Source of the DNA: Dictyostelium discoideum | Taxonomy: Eukaryota | Length of the DNA: 64,000 bases | Reading direction: 5' to 3' | Assembly (NCBI GenBank): GCA_000004695.1 | Contig: CM000150.2 | Span: 896,001-960,000 of the forward strand | Part shown: piece after piece, positions 18,771-56,882 of the stretch | Layout of the letters: every line of letters starts with the position of its first letter | Numbering within the stretch: the first letter of the stretch is position 1 | The notes under the pieces: model-generated | The model's database searches: none | What the model was told of the DNA's origin: nothing | Seen by the model: only the letters and a program-made list of their open reading frames with translations | Made by a program: the position numbers and the translations under genes

Positions 18771-18917
18771 CTAGTTTTCCAACTCTGAGAGTACACTTAA
18801 AAGTAATTTCTTTAATGGTGGTTGTAAATCCTTTTCAATTTTATGTTCTTGACTATTTATAATTTCATCATAGTTGTGTTGATAATTATTATTATTAATA
18901 TTACTATTATTAATATA

Positions 18918-18998
<81 letters not shown>

Positions 18999-19576
18999 AT
19001 TATTATTATTATTATTAAAATTATTGTAATTATTATTGTAATTATTAATATTATTAATATTATTAAAATTAAAATTATTGGAATTATTATTGGAATTATT
19101 ATTGGAATTATTATTAATATTGATATTGTCTTGGTTGAAATGTCTTTTATTTGTGTTGTTACTGAGATTTTCTAAATATTTTATATGTTCACTTGTTATA
19201 TTAATTCCTGTATTATTGTTATTACTATTTTCAAAATTATTACTTTTGAAAGCTGCTGGAGAAGGTGGATTTGAGTTATCACTATTGTAACCACTATTAT
19301 AACTATTTTCTATAAAGTGATGGTTATTTCCATTGGTATTAATACCATGGCTATTATTATTATTAATATTGTTGTTGTTATTGTTATTGTTGTTGTTGCT
19401 ATTATATGGTAAATAGTTGAATAAAGATGGTAATTGTTTATTAATATTATGTTGATTATGTTGCTGTTGATGTTGTAAAAATGATGGAGGAACTAAAGAA
19501 GATTGTTGATATCTATCTGAAACACCAATATTTGAATTTCCATTGCTATACATTTCCTTGTTATTATTATTATATA

Positions 19577-19646
<70 letters not shown>

Positions 19647-21064
19647 GCTATTGTTGTTATTGATGTTATTATGTTGGAAGTGACTGGCATTATAATTATT
19701 ACTGTTGTTATTATAAATATTGAAATTATTTGAATTATTGTTATTATTATTATTATAATCATTATTGTTGCTAATATTATGATTATATGAATGAGTGTTA
19801 CTATTACCGCTACTACTATTATAATTATTATTATTATTATTATTTGATGAGTTATAACTATTATAAACACTACTAGTTGGTGTTGAAAGATAAGAAATTG
19901 GTGAAGGTAATATTTGTGATGACTGTTCAAATAATTGTTGTTGTTGTTGTTGCTGTTGTAAAATTTGTTGATGTTGAATTCTTTGTTGATTTTGGTAATG
20001 TTGAATTTGTTCCATTTGTTTTTGTTGCTTTTTTGATATTTTGGGTTGTTTTGGTAATTTTGGAGGTTTTGGTTCTTTTGGTGGTTTGGCTTGTTTTTGT
20101 GGTTTTTGTGGTTTTGATTCTTTTGATTCTTTTGATTCTTTTGATTCTTTTGATTCTTTTTGTGGTTTTGGTGGCTTTGGTTCTTTTTTAAGTTGATTTG
20201 TTAATTGTGATAAAAGGGATGGAGTTTTATCTTCAATAATTTCTTTTTGTTGTTGAAGTATTTGTGGAGTAATTTGAGATTTTAATGTTTGTTGAATTTC
20301 TACAATTGGATTATTATTAAAATTATTATTATTGTTTGTTGTTGTTGTTGTTGTAGTTGGTGGTGGTGTTGCTGTAGTTGGTGGTGTTATGGCAGTGGTA
20401 ACATTTTGATTAATTTGATTAGTTTGAATATTTTCATCTTCATTTTGATCTTCTTGATAATTATATGGTGAAGAAATTGGTGAAGAATTATTTGTTAAAG
20501 GTGGTAAAGATCTATCTCTAATTATTTGTCTAAAAACACTAGTTGTTGAATCTGGATAGTTTAATTCTGCTGATAAATAACCCAACTCTTTTAAATAACC
20601 AATTGCTGAAAATAAAATAATGATGTGAGAAATATTTGGAATTGGATTCTTTAACCATTCATAAAGAGTAGTAGAGAATGAAACTCTGCTATAGTTTATA
20701 AAATTCTCAAAATAACAACATGTTTTCCAAATATTATTTTTAGATAGTATAGGTAATTTATCCAACATAGGTGCCCAACTTTGGAGTAGGGAAAGTTGTA
20801 AAAATACAGATGATAAATCTGTACTCCACACTGTTGGACCAAGGTTTTGTGAATTTGAATCATCAAAGTCTTCATCAAATTCACCATTCTCCTCAGTCAA
20901 TTGAGTTGGGGTTGTATATTTTGAAAGAGTTGGTGTTGGTGTCCTACTAGGTGTTGGTGTTGGAATTCTAATTGGTGTTGGCATTCTAATTGGTATTGGC
21001 ATTTCCAATGATTCTGTTGATTGTTGTGATTGTTGTTGTTGTTGTGATTGTTGTGATTGTTGTG

Positions 21065-21159
<95 letters not shown>

Positions 21160-22251
21160 AGTTGTTGTTTTGGTGATAATAATAATAAAGGTGGTGGTGG
21201 AGTAGGTGAGGATTGTCTAATTGGGATTTGGAGTAAAGGTATTTGTAGTTGAAGTGAAGGCAATTGAATTAGATTTCTTGGTGAATGTAAGGGTGATGTT
21301 GATGAAGTAGGTAGATTTGTATGGTGCTTTTCTTTCTTATTTTCATTTTCATTTTCAATTTCATTTTCATTTTTATTTTCATTTTCATTTTTATTTTTAT
21401 TTTTATTTTCATTTTCATTTTCTTTTTCTTTTTCATTTTCTATTTCTTTTCCATTTTCTTGATCTTGACCTTGACCTTTTTCACCATTAATAATAACTTC
21501 TGGTAATTTAATAGTTGGTGTACAATCCATTTCTTTAAAAGAAAATAAATTCTCTGGAACATTTTGGCACTCAATAAATTGATCCCAATCTTTTATTGAA
21601 AGTTCACAATATTTTAAAATATAAGAATCTTTTAAAATTTCCAAATCAAGTTTTATATCTTTTTTAATTTCCAACTCTTTTTCATTTTTGTTTTCTTCCA
21701 TTTCAATTTCTTGATTGTCTTCTTTTATTTTTTCTTTATTTTCTTCATTTACTAGATTCTCATTTTCTTTATCTTTATCTTGGTCATTGGTGGATTCATT
21801 TCTATCCTCAGCATCACTGTTGTTGTTGTTTCTACTATTTGAATAGTTTATTAAATCAATATCAGATGAATTTAGTTTCCAATAACCTCTTTGTTGAAAT
21901 ACTGGGAGACCAGTTTGAAAATATTTTGGATGACCAGATAGAGTATCATTTATAATTTTTTTAATTTCAGTTTCTGTGGTGGTTGGATCAATATTTAATA
22001 ACTCCATATGAGAATAGGTAAATATGTTGATAAAAGATGTGTGAATAAATGATTGTTGGAATTGAGCCTTGAAATATTTTAACTTTTCAACTATTGATAA
22101 TACTATTTTCAATCTATCTAACCAGCTCGGTATTTTTTTATTTATAATTTCTGATAATGGGCCAACTGTGCAAAGTTCACAATTACATTTAATTATATAA
22201 TTTGAATTATCTTCACTTTCATTATTATTATTATTATCATTATTATTATTA

Positions 22252-22286
<35 letters not shown>

Positions 22287-22553
22287 TTGAATATTATTTA
22301 ATAATTTTATTCTATCTGAAACTTCTTTTCTAATTATCATTTTTAAAATTTTTGAAGTTGATTCTGGATTATTTACTAAAGATTTAAATGATGGAGATAT
22401 ATCGTTGTACCTTTTCTTTAATAGTTGAGTAACCTTGAGGGCAATATAATCTGAATCTAATGATTCAAATATTTGATTATTTAACCAAAAATATTCATTT
22501 TGATATTGAGGTCCAGTGATGTAAATTAATTTTGATGTATCATTTACTGTCAT
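18771..22553 (-). CDS. Paralog family member 3. Long form of 1260 aa with N-terminal family blocks only. Long poly-Q, poly-N and KESKES repeats.
   Basis: KLIYITGPQYQNEYFWL, KCNCELCTVGPL and FQTGLPVFQQRGYWKL align with the other members. No CCCH knuckle and no C-terminal family module found. (CAA)n coding at 21021..21170 on the minus strand. Confidence 0.55.
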
Positions 22554-23583: not shown

Positions 23584-24681
23584 TTAATTAATTAAATCAT
23601 AAGCTAAATCTAGAGTAAATTGACCAGTTTTTAAATTTTTTCTTCTAGCTACTCTAATATTAGGTAATAATTGTTTTGCATTAAAATTCAAATAAAATGA
23701 TAAAATACCTTCATCGAGTAAATGGCATAAAACTATTGGATATTGAATTTCTTCAGAAAAAGATCTAATAGATGGAGAGAAGCCGGATTTACTTACTATT
23801 ATACCCAATGTTGATTTTTTATCTTGTTTTAGTAATTTTGAATTTTCTTTATCCAATTCCGATTGATATCTTAAAAATGTTGATTCAAATTCTCTTATCA
23901 CTGAAGGACCCACCTTTTTACCACTATAATTTTTACATTGACCAATTATTTTTAAAATTTTATTTGAAGGAAGGTTCCAATTACCTTTAAAATCAATACC
24001 TTTATCATCTCTGCCACCTGATCTAATAATTTCCATACCAAATTCATTTAAAATTTCAATAGTTTTTAATTCATATATTTTCCCTTTTGAATATGTTGAT
24101 GAAACTATTTCATTTTCAATTTCCGTTATATCATTACTAAAATCTTCATTATCACCCTCATCACCCCTATCATCATCTTGATTGGTAAAGTCATTATTAA
24201 CATCATCTTTTTTTACATTTTTATCATTTTTTTGTTTTTCTATGTTTATTTCTATTTTCTTAACTCTTAATAATTTAATTTTTGGTTTTTCTTCTCCCTC
24301 CTCTTCTTCTTCCTCTTCTTCCTCTTGTTGTTCTTCTTCTTTTTTATTTTCTATATTTACAATTTTTTCTTCTACTTCTTCATTATTTAAATCTTGTTGA
24401 ATTTCTTTTAATAATTCTAAATCTTTTTTATTATTTTTTAAAATTTCTTTTTTATCAATTTCTTCATCAAATTTTAAATCAAACCAATTTTTTGTTCTCC
24501 AACATTGATCATCTTTAATTTTTTGTAATGTTACTTTTAAGTGATTTCCTTCATTTTTTGATTTATCAATTTTTAATTGATCATTTTCATTAAAATTATC
24601 TGTTGTTATGGAAATTATATTTTTTCTTTTAAATGACCTAAATTTATTATAATATTTATTAAATTTTGTTATTCTAAACAT
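23584..24681 (-). CDS. Protein with a C-terminal Mrr-type PD-(D/E)xK restriction-endonuclease-like domain. Probably mitochondrial.
   Basis: C-terminus SGGRDDKGIDFKGNW...IIGQCKNYSGKKVGPSVIREFESTF matches the Mrr catalytic signature G-x-D-x-GID...QCK-x-Y...V-x-x-(F/L). The N-terminus MFRITKFNKYYNKFRSFKRK is basic and hydroxylated, like a presequence. An acidic poly-E stretch lies in the middle. Confidence 0.5.
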   Translation of the reverse strand: MFRITKFNKYYNKFRSFKRKNIISITTDNFNENDQLKIDKSKNEGNHLKVTLQKIKDDQCWRTKNWFDLKFDEEIDKKEILKNNKKDLELLKEIQQDLNNEEVEEKIVNIENKKEEEQQEEEEEEEEEGEEKPKIKLLRVKKIEINIEKQKNDKNVKKDDVNNDFTNQDDDRGDEGDNEDFSNDITEIENEIVSSTYSKGKIYELKTIEILNEFGMEIIRSGGRDDKGIDFKGNWNLPSNKILKIIGQCKNYSGKKVGPSVIREFESTFLRYQSELDKENSKLLKQDKKSTLGIIVSKSGFSPSIRSFSEEIQYPIVLCHLLDEGILSFYLNFNAKQLLPNIRVARRKNLKTGQFTLDLAYDLIN

Positions 24682-24775
24682 TCTTTTTTTTTTATTTATT
24701 TATTTTTTTTTTTTTTTTTTTTAAATTAAAAATCACAAAAAAAAAAAAAAATTAAAAAACGACCCAAAATTTAAT

Positions 24776-24816
<41 letters not shown>

Positions 24817-24877
24817 CGTTTTTTAGATTTACCATTTTATAACCACCCCCCAATAACAATAATAAATAAAATTAAAA

Positions 24878-26078
24878 ATGTCAAATAAAGTTGGAAATAG
24901 TAAAAATAATAAAAATAAATCAATTAAATTTGCACCAAAACATAAAGATAAATCATATGATAATGAGGACTTTAATGCTGTAAGTAAAAAGTCATCAATA
25001 TCAGTTAGTGATTTACCAACTAAAGGTGAAGAGAAACACAGAATCATGGCATTATCATTTCCAATTAAATTATCAATGTGGGATTTTGGTCAATGTGATA
25101 GTAAAAAATGTACTGGTAGAAAATTAGAAAGATTAGGTTATGTTAAATCAATTAATTTAACTCATAAATTTAAAGGAATTGTCTTAACGTAATTATTATT
25201 ATTGCTTATTATTGTATTATTGTATTATTTTTATTATTATTATTATTATTGTATTATTTATTTATTATTTATTATTTTAATATATATTTAGACCATCAGC
25301 AAAACAATCAATTTCACCAGCAGATAGAGATATTGTTCAAAATTTAGGTGTTTCAGTTGTAGATTGTTCATGGGCAAAAGTTGATTCAATTCCATTTGGA
25401 AAGATGAAAGGTGGACATGATAGATTATTACCATTTTTAATTGCAGCTAATCCAGTTAACTATGGTAAACCATTTAAATTAACATGTGTTGAAGCAGTTG
25501 CAGCTTGTTTATTTATCACTGGTTTTACAGCAGAAGGTCATCAAGTTTTAGGTGGTTTTAAATGGGGTTCATCATTTTACAAAGTTAATAAAGATCTCTT
25601 TGAAAAATATATACTTTGTGCAAATAGTCAAGAAGTTGTTCAAATTCAAAATGAATTCATTGCAAAATGTGAACAAGATCAAAAAGATAGAGCTGCAAAT
25701 ATTGAATATGATGAATTTGGTTTACAATTAAATCCAAATAGAATTTTAAGAACTAATAATGATGATGATGAAGAAAATGGTGATGAAGATTATTGTGATG
25801 ATGATGATGAAGATGAGGATGAAGAAGATGAAGAAGAAGATCATGAATGTGATAGTGAATGTGATCATGATGAGGAGGAAGAAGAAGATAATGATGAAGA
25901 AAATGATGAAGAAGAGGAAGATGGAGAGGATGATGATGATGACGAAGAAAGTGAAGAAGAAGAAGAGGTTGATGAAGAAGAAGAAAAAAGACAATATAGA
26001 TTAAAAAAAGAATTACAAAAGAAAAAAGCGGAAGAAAAGAAATTACAAAAACAAATGGGAAAATTAAATTTAAAATAA
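24878..26078 (+). CDS. tsr3: Tsr3 (18S rRNA aminocarboxypropyltransferase / ribosome-biogenesis protein). Two exons, approximately 24878..25188 and 25292..26078. Acidic C-terminal tail.
   Basis: [23 protein letters not shown]...GIVLT|[12 protein letters not shown]...[51 protein letters not shown] is co-linear with the eukaryotic TSR3/DUF367 core. Intron AC|GTAATT...tttag|A is phase 2. Confidence 0.8.
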
Positions 26079-50091: not shown

Positions 50092-50173
50092 GACATCGTA
50101 GCGAAGTGGTCTAACGCGTTTGACTTGAAATCAAATCTCCTAGGAGGCGCAGGTTCGAACCCTGCCGATGTCG
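50092..50173 (+). tRNA. tRNA-Ser(UGA): tRNA-Ser, anticodon UGA, 82 nt, no intron.
   Basis: Acceptor GACATCG/CGATGTC with G73. A 3-bp D stem. Anticodon stem TTTGA/TCAAA with loop CTTGAAA (UGA at positions 34-36). Long variable arm TCTCCTAGGAGGCGC. T arm GCAGG-TTCGAAC-CCTGC. Confidence 0.85.
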
Positions 50174-50260
50174 ATATTTTATTTGCACTGCTAAATTCCC
50201 GAACTTCGGATGTTTGAAACTTGGGTCCCAACCAAAATAGTTTTATCCATATAAAGAGCA

Positions 50261-51607
50261 CAGTACTGCTCAGCAACATCATCATCGTTAAACAAAGAGA
50301 AAACAGTAATGATAGCAATAGGAGATTACCATTCCAAGAGAGTACAGTCCCAGAAAGATATCTTGGCCTCAATTTCACCAAAACAGGTTTAAATTCAAAA
50401 TACAACACTTTAATCCAAGAAATGAAAAACAATCTAATCAAATGGAAATCACAAGCAATAACGATGAAGGCAAAGATGACAATTCTCAAAACATACGTTC
50501 TATCCAAATTAACATACCATCAATACATGGATAATCTAAATGAAGAACAAATTGAGGAAATCAATAACATGACCAGATGGTTCTTATTCTCCTCAGTTAA
50601 GAATACATATACAGAAGAGAGAAAATACAAAACTATGATGAAAATAGACAGAGCATATGCAGATTGGAAAGAAGGAGGCATAAAATTATGGGATTTAGAA
50701 CTAAGACATATAGCATTCAAAATCTGGTACATGAACAGGCTATTCCATAACAACTACAACAACAACAACAATACCTTACAAGAATGGTACATGGAGCAAT
50801 TAAGTAGAAAAAAGCCCACACTTCAACCCTCAACGATATGTGCAGACACTGGGGTGTATTCAGAGTCAAATTTTACAAAAACCATCCAAAGATAAATGAA
50901 CTTCCAGACTGTATAAGAAACGACAATGACGAACCACTAAAACTGAAAGAAATTTACGAACTCATGATCAAAGACAGACACCCAACACCAAGAAGAACAG
51001 AATGGCAGAAGTTATGGGCGGTGAGATACAACACAGCAATACCCAAAGTATTCATAAACATCAACAGCATTTCTCACCAAAAAGGTAGAAACACCCTCTT
51101 CAGATTCTTCTCAAGATCACTTCCAGGTATCAACCACGAAAGAGACACCAGATGCAAGATCTGTGGCCACCTATTAAGAGACCCTTATTCTCACCTCTTC
51201 ACTCTATGCCAAGATATCCTAGATATTGAAAAAACCATCATATCAACAGTTAACAAAATATCATTCATCAAAATCCACAGATGGTCAATGGATACCTTAG
51301 ACATATCAAAATACAACAGAACTGAGAGAATCTTCCCCAATCTCATAGGAATAATAGCACACCAATTATGGAAGATAATCTGTCACAAATTGTTCAACAC
51401 TGATGAAAGCAAACCAGAGCCAAAATTCGAACAAAAGGTCATAGAAACAGAATTACTAAATCTCATCGAAACTGAAAAATTCATCACACTAAAGAAAATC
51501 AAACACGACGAAGCAATACTAAAAAACACCAATCAAGATCTTCACAAATACAAATTCAACAAAGCCTGGCAAACCCCAGCAGCTCCGAACCCTCTTCCAA
51601 TTTAAGT

Positions 51608-54029: not shown

Positions 54030-56882
54030 TTAATGGAAAAAATATCTACTTTCTTTTACTTTATTAATATCTAATTCACCTTTTTTTGGTAATTTAGGGA
54101 ATTTAATATCTGGATATCTAACTTGGAACCATTCAAGTAAACGTTCTAAAATTGGTTGTTTATGAAGTTCAACAAATTCATTTCTTAAGATATCATTCAT
54201 TCTATCGACAGTTGAAGCATGAGTCCAATAGGAATCATGTACTGAGGAGTAGGTGATACCTTGATCATAACAAGTCATAGCAGTTAAAAACATATGAGTT
54301 GAATCTAAAGAGTGAATGAAATTTGGAGGGAAAGCAGAACGTTGACGATTTGAATCCACTTGAAGTAAATCATCATTATGAACTACGATGAAATCACATT
54401 CCAATGTTCTAATATTATATTTACCACCTTTTTTATATGGTTGTACAACTGGTAGACCCAATGGGGTGTTCCAAGTTACACAATGACCCGATTTTGCAAT
54501 GAGTGTGGCGCAATCGGACATCCACTTCATGATGGATCTTGCACCAACAAACATATTATTCAAAGAGGCAAAGGTGTTTTTTGTAATGTATGTAGAGGAT
54601 TTAAATATGAAATCTTCGTCTAAATCGAGATCACTAAATTTCTCAAGGATTGCATTTTCAATTTGTTCACGAGCACCAATATAGGTTACACCATATACAC
54701 TTGTCATAACGGTTTGTTTCACCAATTTTCTATCGACTTTACCTAAAAAGAATTGAGCAATCTCATCGCCATTCTTGGCGTCCTCCTCTACGATTTGCTC
54801 CACCAATTGTGCTACACTACTATAGACATCCTGTGGACAATCGGATGGGAGTAAATTAACCTTTTCAGCACCCCAAACATCACCACCCAAAGCAGCATAA
54901 TGTTGAAGACCATTGCAAGTACCATCTTGATGAATAGGTAAATTGGAGAGGAACTCGGCAGGTTTGCCACTACGAATGGCTTTGGTGAGCTCCATACAAG
55001 CTGCAAGAGTTTGCCATGGATTATCGGCCTTCAACCACCATTTATTACCATTCAATGGTGAATCAACACTATCGAAAATATTTTCCATGTTTCTCTCGGT
55101 GAATGCTAATCTTTCATTCAATGGAATCTTATCGACACCATAGAGATTTGCTACATGTATCTTTAACCATTCCAAACCTTTCTCGCCCAATGGCAATGAT
55201 TTTTCAAATTTCAATAGACTTCTACAAAAATCTGAACCTAAATGATTTAAATGTGGTGGAATTGGGTATGATCTACCACGGAAATCGATATTGTGTGGAA
55301 AGTAAAGTGTATGATCTAAAAACTTTCTGGCTACTTCCAATTTGTAATTTGTATCACAACGTAGTGAATGAAGATTGAAATTTAGCGATTTGATTCTTTG
55401 TTCTTTTTTGTAGAGTTCTTTACGAGCTTCATGATCAAACAACATATCATCTGATATCTCTGGATATTCGAAATCGGTTCTCTTGGGAATATCACCAATG
55501 TTACCACCATTGGCCCATGCTTCCAAGATTACATTGTAGAGATCTCTATTGATCACCCATGGTGTTTCACCGAGAATATTCAATGCTCTATAGATTAATG
55601 ACATATCAGAGTCTACGAGTGTTCTCAATTGCATTGCTGAGCCATTGGTTCTCATGATGGGTACTTTATAATGGAGGTATGGACCTTCGGTTGGTGTGAT
55701 CCATGGCAATGGTTTAATCACCATTGGGAATAGACGTGCACCACCTGTCTCTCTAATTTCATGACCTGCTTCAATCAATTTGAATATATTTTTGTGTGGT
55801 ATAACTTTTGTGGTTCTAACACCATTGGCATAATGAGATTGAATGGTGAAGGCTGGCGATTGTTTTGAGCCATCCTCACCCAACGACTCTTGAATCGTAC
55901 AATGTTTAAATACTTGACTCACAAGGAACTCACCAATGCTAAAGATGTCCTTTGATTCTGGTGGTAGAACGATCACATCGAGATTGTCTGTGGAAAGATT
56001 GTAAAACTTTTTAAGAGCAGAATTTGGTATGAGTTTTGAGATTTTCTTGTAGGTTTTTGGTTCTTTTTTCTTTACAATTAGCGATTTATACTCTGCATAC
56101 ACCGATACACCAATGGTCTCTATAATGATATTGGTCGCAAAGTCGTATCTATCTTTTAATACACTTTTGCCTACAATGATATTCAATGATTTTAGTATGC
56201 ATTTCTGAACAGACACTGTCTTCAATATAGTGACCCATGCTGCATCTTGATCCTTGGTTGCAAGATCCTTTTGTACCTTTTCTGTCAACCCTTCATTCCA
56301 TTGCATCAAAACATCACGAATCGATTTAAAACTGGTCACAAATGATTTACCCTTGCTATCAAGCATTAAATCACGATAACGAGTGACTGCGTCGTCAATG
56401 GCTTCAAATTCCAAGAGGGTTTGTATCTTTCTTAAATTCTTTTCATCATCACTAATCTCCTTAACATCACTCTTCCAATCGGTGTCATTTTCAATTCCAT
56501 CTTCACCATCTAATAAATAACTTTGTGCAACAACTCTTGCTTTATTCAATTTTGCTAAATCCTCTACAAATGATTTCTCCAAGTCGATTAATTTCTGTTT
56601 GGTTTCATTCAATCTCTGTTCACTATCTAAATATTCTAATGGTGATGATAAATCTTCTTTATCTGGAAATAATTCTTTTAATTTATCTAATCTATTTGAA
56701 TTCTCTTGTCCATCTTCTATAATTTTTCTTAAATTTGAATATTCATTTATTTTTATATTATTTATATTACTATTTATATTATTATTATTATTATTATTAT
56801 TACTACTACTATATTTATAATTATTAAAACTTTGTAATTTAACTTTTGAAATTGATCTTAAATTTTGACCTAACCTAATCAT
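54030..56882 (-). CDS. rpmA: Mitochondrial DNA-directed RNA polymerase (single-subunit T7/T3 phage type), 950 aa.
   Basis: T7-type RNAP catalytic motifs: IHQDGTCNGLQHYAALGGD (motif A), RKLVKQTVMTSVYGVTYIGAREQI (motif B), FIHSLDSTHM / SVHDSYWTHA (motif C). Basic N-terminal presequence MIRLGQNLRSISKVKLQSF. Confidence 0.85.
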   Translation of the reverse strand: MIRLGQNLRSISKVKLQSFNNYKYSSSNNNNNNNNINSNINNIKINEYSNLRKIIEDGQENSNRLDKLKELFPDKEDLSSPLEYLDSEQRLNETKQKLIDLEKSFVEDLAKLNKARVVAQSYLLDGEDGIENDTDWKSDVKEISDDEKNLRKIQTLLEFEAIDDAVTRYRDLMLDSKGKSFVTSFKSIRDVLMQWNEGLTEKVQKDLATKDQDAAWVTILKTVSVQKCILKSLNIIVGKSVLKDRYDFATNIIIETIGVSVYAEYKSLIVKKKEPKTYKKISKLIPNSALKKFYNLSTDNLDVIVLPPESKDIFSIGEFLVSQVFKHCTIQESLGEDGSKQSPAFTIQSHYANGVRTTKVIPHKNIFKLIEAGHEIRETGGARLFPMVIKPLPWITPTEGPYLHYKVPIMRTNGSAMQLRTLVDSDMSLIYRALNILGETPWVINRDLYNVILEAWANGGNIGDIPKRTDFEYPEISDDMLFDHEARKELYKKEQRIKSLNFNLHSLRCDTNYKLEVARKFLDHTLYFPHNIDFRGRSYPIPPHLNHLGSDFCRSLLKFEKSLPLGEKGLEWLKIHVANLYGVDKIPLNERLAFTERNMENIFDSVDSPLNGNKWWLKADNPWQTLAACMELTKAIRSGKPAEFLSNLPIHQDGTCNGLQHYAALGGDVWGAEKVNLLPSDCPQDVYSSVAQLVEQIVEEDAKNGDEIAQFFLGKVDRKLVKQTVMTSVYGVTYIGAREQIENAILEKFSDLDLDEDFIFKSSTYITKNTFASLNNMFVGARSIMKWMSDCATLIAKSGHCVTWNTPLGLPVVQPYKKGGKYNIRTLECDFIVVHNDDLLQVDSNRQRSAFPPNFIHSLDSTHMFLTAMTCYDQGITYSSVHDSYWTHASTVDRMNDILRNEFVELHKQPILERLLEWFQVRYPDIKFPKLPKKGELDINKVKESRYFFH

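What the first reader, a model, noticed from the sequence alone, without database searches (positions are those of the whole stretch)
23584..24681. Eukaryotic protein with a prokaryote-type Mrr restriction-endonuclease fold
The C-terminal 150 aa carry the Mrr-cat signature (G-x-D-x-GID ... QCK-x-Y ... V-x-x-F), which is a PD-(D/E)xK nuclease core. The N-terminal region is presequence-like and there is a central poly-E spacer. In eukaryotes this fold is rare and occurs in mitochondrial proteins (for example fungal RRG7-like proteins, as far as I recall). It may have an organellar DNA processing or maintenance role.
Basis: partly seen in the sequence, partly recalled or inferred. Interest (0 to 1): 0.5.

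Follow-up and report, generated by a model that had tools for sequence, protein, structure and literature searches.

The report
Dictyostelium RRG7-family Mrr-type nuclease gene

The parts
23584..24681 (-). Complete single-exon CDS (365 aa plus TAA stop) of DDB_G0267820, the RRG7-family protein
   Evidence: ORF list; exact match to XP_647333.1/Q55G50; Pfam RRG7 E=9e-16
24601..24681 (-). Presequence-like N-terminus, aa 1-27 (MFRITKFNKYYNKFRSFKRKNIISITT): 8 K/R, no D/E, amphipathic
   Evidence: Composition and hydrophobic moment. Conserved in group-4 dictyostelids. dN/dS 0.35 against D. firmibasis. Similar basic, acid-free N-termini in 60% of family members that have an N-terminal extension, against 19% of control ORFs. 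The targeting function is inferred, not shown.
24457..24501 (-). Dictyostelid-specific motif W-R-x-K-x-W-F followed by acidic FDEEID, aa 61-75; function unknown
   Evidence: Full motif in 8 of 9 dictyostelid orthologs and partly present (TKAWF) in the ninth, so K64 and W66 are invariant in all nine; absent from the fungal and other members held. Low pLDDT.
24289..24339 (-). Acidic low-complexity tract (EEEQQEEEEEEEEEGEE), aa 115-131, inside a disordered linker (aa 28-190)
   Evidence: Sequence; pLDDT below 50; linker dN/dS 0.68, i.e. relaxed constraint; length and sequence vary among dictyostelids
24247..24282 (-). Short conserved basic/hydrophobic segment KIKLLRVKKIEI, aa 134-145, found in group-4 dictyostelids only
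   Evidence: Alignment; weakly predicted beta-strand 135-137, pLDDT about 68
23596..24099 (-). Mrr-type PD-(D/E)xK nuclease domain (RRG7 domain), aa 195-362: alpha1(196-212), beta1(216-220), beta2(231-236), beta3(242-250), alpha2(259-280), beta4(291-297), then further helices and strands
24070..24072 (-). E204 in helix alpha1, a conserved acidic residue of the predicted active site
   Evidence: E in 142/142 ungapped family representatives
23992..24006 (-). D226-K-G-I-D230 loop at the start of beta2; D230 is the predicted metal-binding aspartate
   Evidence: D226 in 148/148 and D230 in 149/149 ungapped sequences. D230 aligns to MspJI D334, and the D334A mutation abolishes MspJI activity.
23932..23940 (-). 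Q248-C249-K250 at the end of beta3: the (Q/E)xK catalytic motif
   Evidence: Q 148/150, C 149/150, K 150/150. Aligns to MspJI Q355-A-K357, and the Q355A mutation abolishes MspJI activity.
23893..23895 (-). R263 in helix alpha2, a family-specific invariant residue
   Evidence: R in 149/150 representatives
24682..24877 (.). 196-bp A/T-rich intergenic region shared with the divergently transcribed Tsr3-type gene; presumed bidirectional promoter
   Evidence: Sequence; neighbour identified by Pfam Fer4_RLI plus Ribo_biogen_C; arrangement conserved in D. firmibasis

Best explanation
DDB_G0267820 is the Dictyostelium discoideum ortholog of fungal Rrg7. It is a nuclear-encoded protein made of three parts: a basic, acid-free N-terminal presequence; a rapidly evolving, disordered, acidic linker; and a stand-alone Mrr-type PD-(D/E)xK nuclease domain.

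Shown here:
- family membership;
- the fold;
- an intact, almost universally conserved E...D-x-G-I-D...Q-C-K...R active-site constellation that aligns with catalytic residues of MspJI;
- strong purifying selection on the domain;
- an old, vertically inherited eukaryotic gene rather than a recent bacterial transfer.

Inferred:
- The N-terminus directs import into mitochondria, as reported for yeast Rrg7.
- The mature domain binds divalent metal through D230 (with E204 and D226) and uses K250 to activate water, cleaving phosphodiester bonds in a mitochondrial nucleic acid. The substrate is most probably mtDNA (recombination, repair or turnover intermediates), less probably RNA.
- Because it lacks any N-terminal modified-base or DNA-recognition domain, it is unlikely to act as a modification-dependent (type IV) restriction enzyme. 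It more probably acts as a small oligomeric, structure- or end-specific nuclease, in the manner of stand-alone relatives such as AF1548, Hjc or NucS.
For: Identity and annotation.
Family membership: Pfam RRG7 E=9e-16. All 150 top representatives match RRG7 and 143 also match Mrr_cat.
Active site: the family profile aligns to MspJI 327-409 at E=1.8e-5, with D334/Q355/K357 on D230/Q248/K250. D334A and Q355A abolish MspJI activity. Near-invariance of E204, D226, D230, Q248, C249, K250 and R263, including proteins named Rrg7, a red alga and a marine protist.
Selection: dN/dS 0.145 for the domain, 0.68 for the linker.
Targeting: 8 K/R and 0 D/E in aa 1-27, and presequence-like N-termini across the family.
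Yeast Rrg7: mitochondrial, with respiratory-growth penetrance 1.00; mtDNA loss in one screen.
Origin: all named homologs are eukaryotic. No plasmid, phage or close prokaryotic genome match. Synteny is conserved in D. firmibasis.
Architecture: no folded N-terminal domain.
Against: There is no direct localisation evidence for the Dictyostelium protein. The two proteome resources that could settle it have no accessible tables here.
The basic N-terminus contains a KRK cluster, and the long acidic linker is also compatible with a nuclear or nucleolar protein.
Nuclease activity has never been shown for any RRG7 member.
The yeast genetics do not point clearly to mtDNA. Delta-rrg7 kept a functional rho+ genome and was rescued by cytoduction (class II). 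That contradicts the complete mtDNA loss reported elsewhere. The mutant also has 7-fold raised CoQ6, which suggests indirect effects.
The D. discoideum sequence alone does not reach Pfam Mrr_cat or any PDB sequence.
Confidence: 0.6

Rival explanations
1. The protein is a mitochondrial RRG7-family nuclease that acts on RNA rather than DNA, for example in end-processing or turnover of mitochondrial transcripts. Other PD-(D/E)xK proteins in mitochondria (Pet127, RAP-domain proteins) work this way.
For: Yeast delta-rrg7 retains rho+ mtDNA in Merz and Westermann, so the protein is not strictly needed for mtDNA maintenance. PD-(D/E)xK families with mitochondrial RNA roles are documented. Most high-confidence yeast pet genes act in mitochondrial gene expression.
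Against: The closest sequence and structural relatives (Mrr_cat, MspJI, AspBHI, AF1548, NucS, FokI, Hjc) are all DNA nucleases. Class II pet mutants were rescued by cytoduction, unlike typical gene-expression mutants, which fall in classes I and III.
Confidence: 0.15
2. In Dictyostelium the protein is nuclear or nucleolar rather than mitochondrial. On this reading the basic N-terminus and K-rich segments act as nuclear localisation signals, the acidic tract is a typical nuclear low-complexity region, and the nuclease works on nuclear DNA.
For: KRK cluster at aa 18-20, K-rich segments at aa 132-160 and a poly-E tract. No direct localisation data. The dictyostelid-specific 190-aa extension is much longer than the family median of about 31 aa.
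Against: Basic, acid-free N-termini of classic presequence type recur across the family in unrelated lineages. Yeast Rrg7 is mitochondrial by GFP and proteomics. The very N-terminal position of the basic segment and the absence of acidic residues for 27 aa fit a presequence better than an NLS. Low-complexity insertions are common in this genome.
Confidence: 0.12
3. The domain has been retained as a non-catalytic nucleic-acid-binding or scaffolding module, and the respiratory phenotype in yeast reflects a structural role.
For: No enzymatic activity has been reported for any member. Related inactive derivatives exist: 7 of 150 representatives also match NACHT-associated inactive REase 1. The yeast phenotypes are pleiotropic.
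Against: Every canonical catalytic position is kept in 148-150 of 150 diverse sequences, across Amoebozoa, fungi, a red alga and protists. Inactivated PD-(D/E)xK domains typically lose these residues. The domain's dN/dS is 0.145.
Confidence: 0.08
4. It is a true Mrr-like type IV (modification-dependent) restriction enzyme, or a recent horizontal transfer of one from bacteria, as the UniProt name suggests.
For: The UniProt name; the catalytic domain is most similar to those of MspJI and AspBHI.
Against: There is no N-terminal reader or DNA-binding domain: no Pfam hit, and the region is predicted disordered. The composition is native (about 20% GC) and the gene is a single exon between housekeeping genes, with synteny conserved in D. 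firmibasis. Orthologs occur throughout dictyostelids and fungi. There are no plasmid, phage or close prokaryotic matches.
Confidence: 0.03

Closest known systems
Rrg7 (YOR305W) of Saccharomyces cerevisiae and Pfam family RRG7 / DUF2034 (PF10356)
   Same: Matches the family model well above the gathering threshold. Has the same stand-alone domain with the E...DxG(I/V)D...QCK...R constellation found in fungal proteins named Rrg7. Has a presequence-like N-terminus, as in most members. It is a eukaryote-only family as far as the named hits show.
   Different: It has a roughly 190-aa N-terminal extension containing an acidic low-complexity linker and a dictyostelid-specific WRxKxWF motif. Both are absent from fungal members, whose median extension is about 31 aa. 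Localisation and phenotype are untested in Dictyostelium.
Mrr_cat (PF04471) catalytic domains of prokaryotic Mrr-superfamily enzymes, e.g. MspJI (4f0p), AspBHI (4oc8), AF1548 (1y88)
   Same: Same alpha-beta-beta-beta-alpha-beta core and D...(Q/E)xK motif at equivalent positions. Placed in the same PD-(D/E)XK group 50 by Steczkiewicz et al. 2012.
   Different: No modified-base reader (SRA-like) or winged-helix domain. Not in a defence locus; it is a eukaryotic nuclear gene. The invariant Cys in QCK and the invariant W235 and R263 are specific to the RRG7 branch. This protein does not itself score on Mrr_cat.
Archaeal Holliday junction resolvase Hjc and NucS/EndoMS (stand-alone PD-(D/E)xK repair and recombination nucleases)
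   Different: Weaker similarity than to Mrr-type domains. No sequence-level match. The junction- or mismatch-specific activity is pure analogy and was not tested.
Other mitochondrial PD-(D/E)xK proteins (Exo5/Dem1, Pet127, RAP-domain proteins)
   Same: Nuclear-encoded, imported into mitochondria, same superfamily, absent from some eukaryotic lineages.
   Different: They belong to different PD-(D/E)xK groups (67, 83 and 111 against group 50), and no Pfam hit to them was found.

Membership tests
RRG7 / DUF2034 (Pfam PF10356) | Scores above the curated Pfam gathering threshold for the family model | tested here: met
   58.3 bits against a cutoff of 22, E=9e-16. All dictyostelid orthologs and all 150 top representatives also match.
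RRG7 / DUF2034 (Pfam PF10356) | Family-conserved constellation E(alpha1)...D-x-G-(I/V)-D...G-x-W...Q-C-K...R | tested here: met
   E204, D226, G228, D230, G233, W235, Q248, C249, K250 and R263 are all present. Each is conserved in at least 143 of 150 representatives and in proteins named Rrg7.
RRG7 / DUF2034 (Pfam PF10356) | Mitochondrial localisation (as reported for yeast Rrg7) | tested here: inconclusive
   The N-terminus is presequence-like (8 K/R, 0 D/E in 27 aa) and this is family-wide. No predictor such as MitoFates or TargetP was available, and the proteome tables were not held.
RRG7 / DUF2034 (Pfam PF10356) | Requirement for respiratory growth (the phenotype that named the family) | not testable with these tools
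   Needs a Dictyostelium knockout. In yeast, penetrance is 1.00 and the mutant is class II.
PD-(D/E)xK superfamily, Mrr_cat group (PF04471; group 50 of Steczkiewicz 2012) | alpha-beta-beta-beta-alpha-beta core fold | tested here: met
PD-(D/E)xK superfamily, Mrr_cat group (PF04471; group 50 of Steczkiewicz 2012) | Catalytic D at the start of beta2 and (Q/E)xK at the end of beta3 | tested here: met
   D230 precedes strand 231-236 and Q248-C-K250 ends strand 242-250. They align to MspJI D334/Q355/K357, and D334A and Q355A abolish MspJI activity.
PD-(D/E)xK superfamily, Mrr_cat group (PF04471; group 50 of Steczkiewicz 2012) | Direct significant match of this protein to the Mrr_cat profile | tested here: not met
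   No Mrr_cat hit at E<=10 for the D. discoideum sequence. 11 of 16 close homologs and 143 of 150 representatives do match, so the link is transitive.
Type IV modification-dependent restriction endonuclease (E. coli Mrr / MspJI type) | N-terminal DNA or modified-base recognition domain fused to the catalytic domain | tested here: not met
   Residues 1-190 have no Pfam domain and are predicted disordered apart from one helix. The family's median N-terminal extension is only about 31 aa.
Type IV modification-dependent restriction endonuclease (E. coli Mrr / MspJI type) | Prokaryotic or mobile-element defence context | tested here: not met
   It is a eukaryotic nuclear gene between Tsr3-type and oxidoreductase genes, with synteny conserved in D. 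firmibasis. No plasmid or phage relatives were found.
Type IV modification-dependent restriction endonuclease (E. coli Mrr / MspJI type) | Cleavage dependent on methylated or modified DNA | not testable with these tools
   Requires biochemistry.

The most novel reading that the evidence does not exclude
The RRG7 family is an active, ancient organellar DNA endonuclease. It is conserved from Amoebozoa through fungi to red algae and marine protists and is missing from animals. On this reading it selectively cuts a particular state of mtDNA (damaged, modified, branched or linear), and so acts in mtDNA quality control, recombination-dependent replication or selective elimination of mitochondrial genomes. 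This would be a eukaryotic re-use of restriction-type chemistry inside an organelle. Dictyostelium, with its dictyostelid-specific WRxKxWF motif and long linker, would be a tractable system in which to show it.
Probability: 0.1. Interest if true: 0.65.

Novelty: already known. Interest (0 to 1): 0.2.

Why it matters
RRG7 is one of the few high-confidence yeast respiratory-growth genes still listed as 'function unknown'. It carries an intact restriction-type nuclease active site that has been conserved across very distant eukaryotes. Finding out what a Mrr-type nuclease does in mitochondria would add a component to organellar genome or transcript maintenance in fungi and protists, including pathogens and mycorrhizal fungi. 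Because the family appears to be absent from animals, it could also be a selective target.

The Dictyostelium copy adds no new concept. It confirms that the family and its active site predate the split between Amoebozoa and fungi, and it offers a genetically tractable haploid, obligately aerobic organism in which the confusing petite-related phenotypes of yeast would not interfere.

Tried and rejected
- NCBIfam scan: no hit.
- PDB sequence search with the single protein gave only low-complexity poly-E noise. The search with the 6-sequence dictyostelid profile gave nothing. Only the 150-sequence profile reached MspJI.
- The prokaryotic genome scan with dictyostelid-derived peptide patterns had 237 pattern matches, none confirmed by tblastn. 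A proper phylogeny against bacterial Mrr was therefore not done.
- tblastn against plasmids and phages: no match.
- Supplementary tables of the two Dictyostelium mitochondrial or spatial proteome papers are not held. Their main texts do not name the protein. One query to the Acanthamoeba proteome paper failed on term syntax and was not repeated.
- A literature search for later functional work on RRG7 or eukaryotic Mrr homologs found nothing beyond screens.
- S. cerevisiae Rrg7 itself was not retrieved by the word-indexed searches. Saccharomycotina proteins named Rrg7 (Nadsonia) were used instead.
- Recent horizontal transfer and 'true type IV restriction enzyme' were considered and rejected (see rival explanations).
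- Functional linkage to the divergent Tsr3-type neighbour was considered and dismissed. That gene is for cytosolic ribosome biogenesis, and the adjacency is lost in Tieghemostelium.

Full report
**What is there.** The window is very AT-rich (GC about 0.13-0.36, mostly about 0.2), and its ORFs carry poly-N and poly-Q tracts. The flagged coordinates 23584-24681 bound exactly one ORF, on the minus strand. It runs from ATG to TAA, encodes 365 aa and has no intron. Its translation is identical from end to end to Dictyostelium discoideum AX4 DDB_G0267820 (XP_647333.1, UniProt Q55G50). NCBI calls this a hypothetical protein, and UniProt already calls it [quoted passage not shown]. So are the basic N-terminus (8 K/R and no D/E in the first 27 residues) and the acidic tract at 115-131.

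**Family.** hmmscan against Pfam gives one significant hit, RRG7 (PF10356, "Required for respiratory growth protein 7"), at E=9e-16 and 58.3 bits against a cutoff of 22. The D. discoideum sequence does not itself reach Mrr_cat, NCBIfam or any PDB sequence. Its relatives do reach Mrr_cat: 11 of 16 close homologs and 143 of 150 representatives from an exhaustive search match both RRG7 and Mrr_cat. That exhaustive phmmer search of 1.84 billion cluster representatives found 623 relatives at E<=1e-3 and 68 at E<=1e-10.

**Active site.** A 150-sequence family profile aligns to MspJI residues 327-409 (E=1.8e-5). In that alignment MspJI D334, Q355 and K357 fall on D230, Q248 and K250. Zheng et al. 2010 showed that D334A and Q355A each abolish MspJI activity, and they describe D...(Q/E)xK as the metal-binding motif of the Mrr superfamily. 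Conservation across the 150 representatives is as follows:

| Residue | Conserved in |
|---|---|
| E204 | 142/142 ungapped |
| D226 | 148/148 ungapped |
| D230 | 149/149 ungapped |
| W235 | 143/150 |
| Q248 | 148/150 |
| C249 | 149/150 |
| K250 | 150/150 |
| R263 | 149/150 |

The same residues are invariant in an alignment that includes a Saccharomycotina protein named Rrg7 (Nadsonia), Dipodascopsis, Neofusicoccum, Aspergillus, Conidiobolus, the red alga Galdieria and a marine protist transcript. Against the D. firmibasis ortholog, dN/dS is 0.145 for the domain, 0.68 for the linker and 0.35 for the first 27 codons. Complete retention of the catalytic positions under strong purifying selection argues for an active enzyme. 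That is an inference, because no RRG7 member has been assayed.

**N-terminal half.** The first 27 residues are basic, free of acidic residues and moderately amphipathic (peak hydrophobic moment 0.64). Among the 95 family representatives that start with Met and have at least 20 residues before the domain, 60% have no acidic and at least two basic residues in their first 20 aa. The figure for 27 long ORFs from this window is 19%, which is a small and rough control. Many family members start with textbook presequences such as MLRFTTRSQY or MLARRLLNHV.

Dictyostelids add a long linker that the fungal members lack. Within it, the full motif W-(R/K)-x-K-x-W-(F/I), followed by an acidic patch, is found in 8 of 9 dictyostelid orthologs. 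The ninth, Acytostelium P0009, has only a partial TKAWF, probably because its gene model is truncated, so K64 and W66 are invariant in all nine. Outside the dictyostelids the motif appears in just one unnamed environmental sequence. I cannot explain this motif. No Pfam domain and no folded reader domain precedes the nuclease. The architecture is therefore not that of Mrr or MspJI.

**Origin and context.** Every homolog that carries an organism name is eukaryotic:
- dictyostelids: Dictyostelium, Polysphondylium, Cavenderia, Tieghemostelium, Acytostelium;
- Glomeromycota, Zoopagomycota and many Ascomycota;
- the red alga Galdieria;
- MMETSP protist transcripts.

tblastn found nothing in 72,556 plasmids or 50,697 phage records. 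A pattern scan of 185,579 prokaryotic genomes confirmed no close relative, but that scan is narrow and does not prove absence. The gene sits 196 bp from a divergently transcribed Tsr3-type ribosome-biogenesis gene and next to an FAD/NAD oxidoreductase gene. The arrangement is kept in D. firmibasis and lost in Tieghemostelium. This is an old, vertically inherited nuclear gene, not a recent transfer.

**What is known.**
- Yor305wp was already listed among "previously identified" PD-(D/E)XK members in 2005.
- DUF2034/PF10356 was grouped with Mrr_cat in 2012, with "function unknown".
[quoted passage not shown] Class II mutants are rho+ and are rescued both by mating to delta-mip1 and by cytoduction.
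- Zhang and Singh 2014 list the yor305w deletion among mutants that completely lost mtDNA.
- Stenger et al. 2020 keep RRG7 as a high-confidence pet gene of unknown function, mitochondrial, with penetrance 1.00 and class II.
- A CoQ screen found 7-fold raised CoQ6 in the mutant.

The fold assignment is therefore established, the mitochondrial location is established for yeast, and the molecular function and the link to mtDNA are unresolved and contradictory.

**Verdict.** The proposed organellar DNA role remains a reasonable but unproven inference. My best explanation is an imported, catalytically competent, stand-alone Mrr-type nuclease acting on a mitochondrial nucleic acid, most probably DNA, and not working as a modification-dependent restriction enzyme. 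Rough probabilities are:

| Claim | Probability |
|---|---|
| RRG7 family membership and fold | about 0.97 |
| Mitochondrial location | about 0.7 |
| Catalytically active | about 0.7 |
| Substrate is DNA | about 0.4-0.5 |

Because the family, its fold class and this very protein's annotation are already public, the novelty rating is "already known". Interest is low to moderate and rests only on the fact that the function of RRG7 is still an open question.

Noticed in passing
window 54030-56882 (-): A 950-aa ORF encodes a phage-type single-subunit RNA polymerase (Pfam RNA_pol E=1.3e-170 plus RPOL_N). It is presumably the nuclear gene for the mitochondrial RNA polymerase. It lies in a GC-richer patch (0.36), about 30 kb from the RRG7-like gene. 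The proximity is probably coincidental.
   Followed up: partly
window 50092-51605 (+): tRNA-Ser(UGA) at 50092-50173 is followed 48 bp downstream by two overlapping ORFs (50221-50895 and 50838-51605) in a GC-richer patch (0.317). Neither has a Pfam hit. This could be a remnant of a tRNA-gene-targeted retroelement of the kind known in Dictyostelium, or an unannotated gene.
   Followed up: partly
window 24878-26078 (+): The divergent neighbour is a Tsr3-type gene (Fer4_RLI plus Ribo_biogen_C) split by an AT-rich intron of about 200 bp between 25193 and 25403. It ends in a long acidic D/E tail.
   Followed up: partly
window 24457-24501 (-), aa 61-75 of the protein: Dictyostelid-specific motif W(R/K)xK(K/N)W(F/I) plus an acidic patch. 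The full motif is found in 8 of 9 dictyostelid orthologs and partly (TKAWF) in the ninth, and it is absent from fungal RRG7 proteins. Its function is unexplained.
   Followed up: partly
Related proteins P0007-P0034 (Diversispora epigaea): The glomeromycete Diversispora epigaea carries at least 20 mostly short or fragmentary RRG7/Mrr_cat paralogs. Some have an internally duplicated domain and Ser/Arg/Glu-rich repeats (P0007). This is a lineage-specific expansion unlike the single copy seen in dictyostelids, and may be linked to repeats or transposons.
   Followed up: no
Related protein P0090 (Galdieria partita): A red alga has an RRG7 member with the full catalytic constellation. The 2012 survey lists the Mrr_cat/DUF2034 group as 'Eukaryota (without Plantae)'.
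   Followed up: partly
window 18771-22553 (-): A 1260-aa ORF immediately downstream is extremely rich in poly-N, poly-Q and KE/PK repeats and has no Pfam domain. This is typical Dictyostelium low-complexity protein.
   Followed up: no
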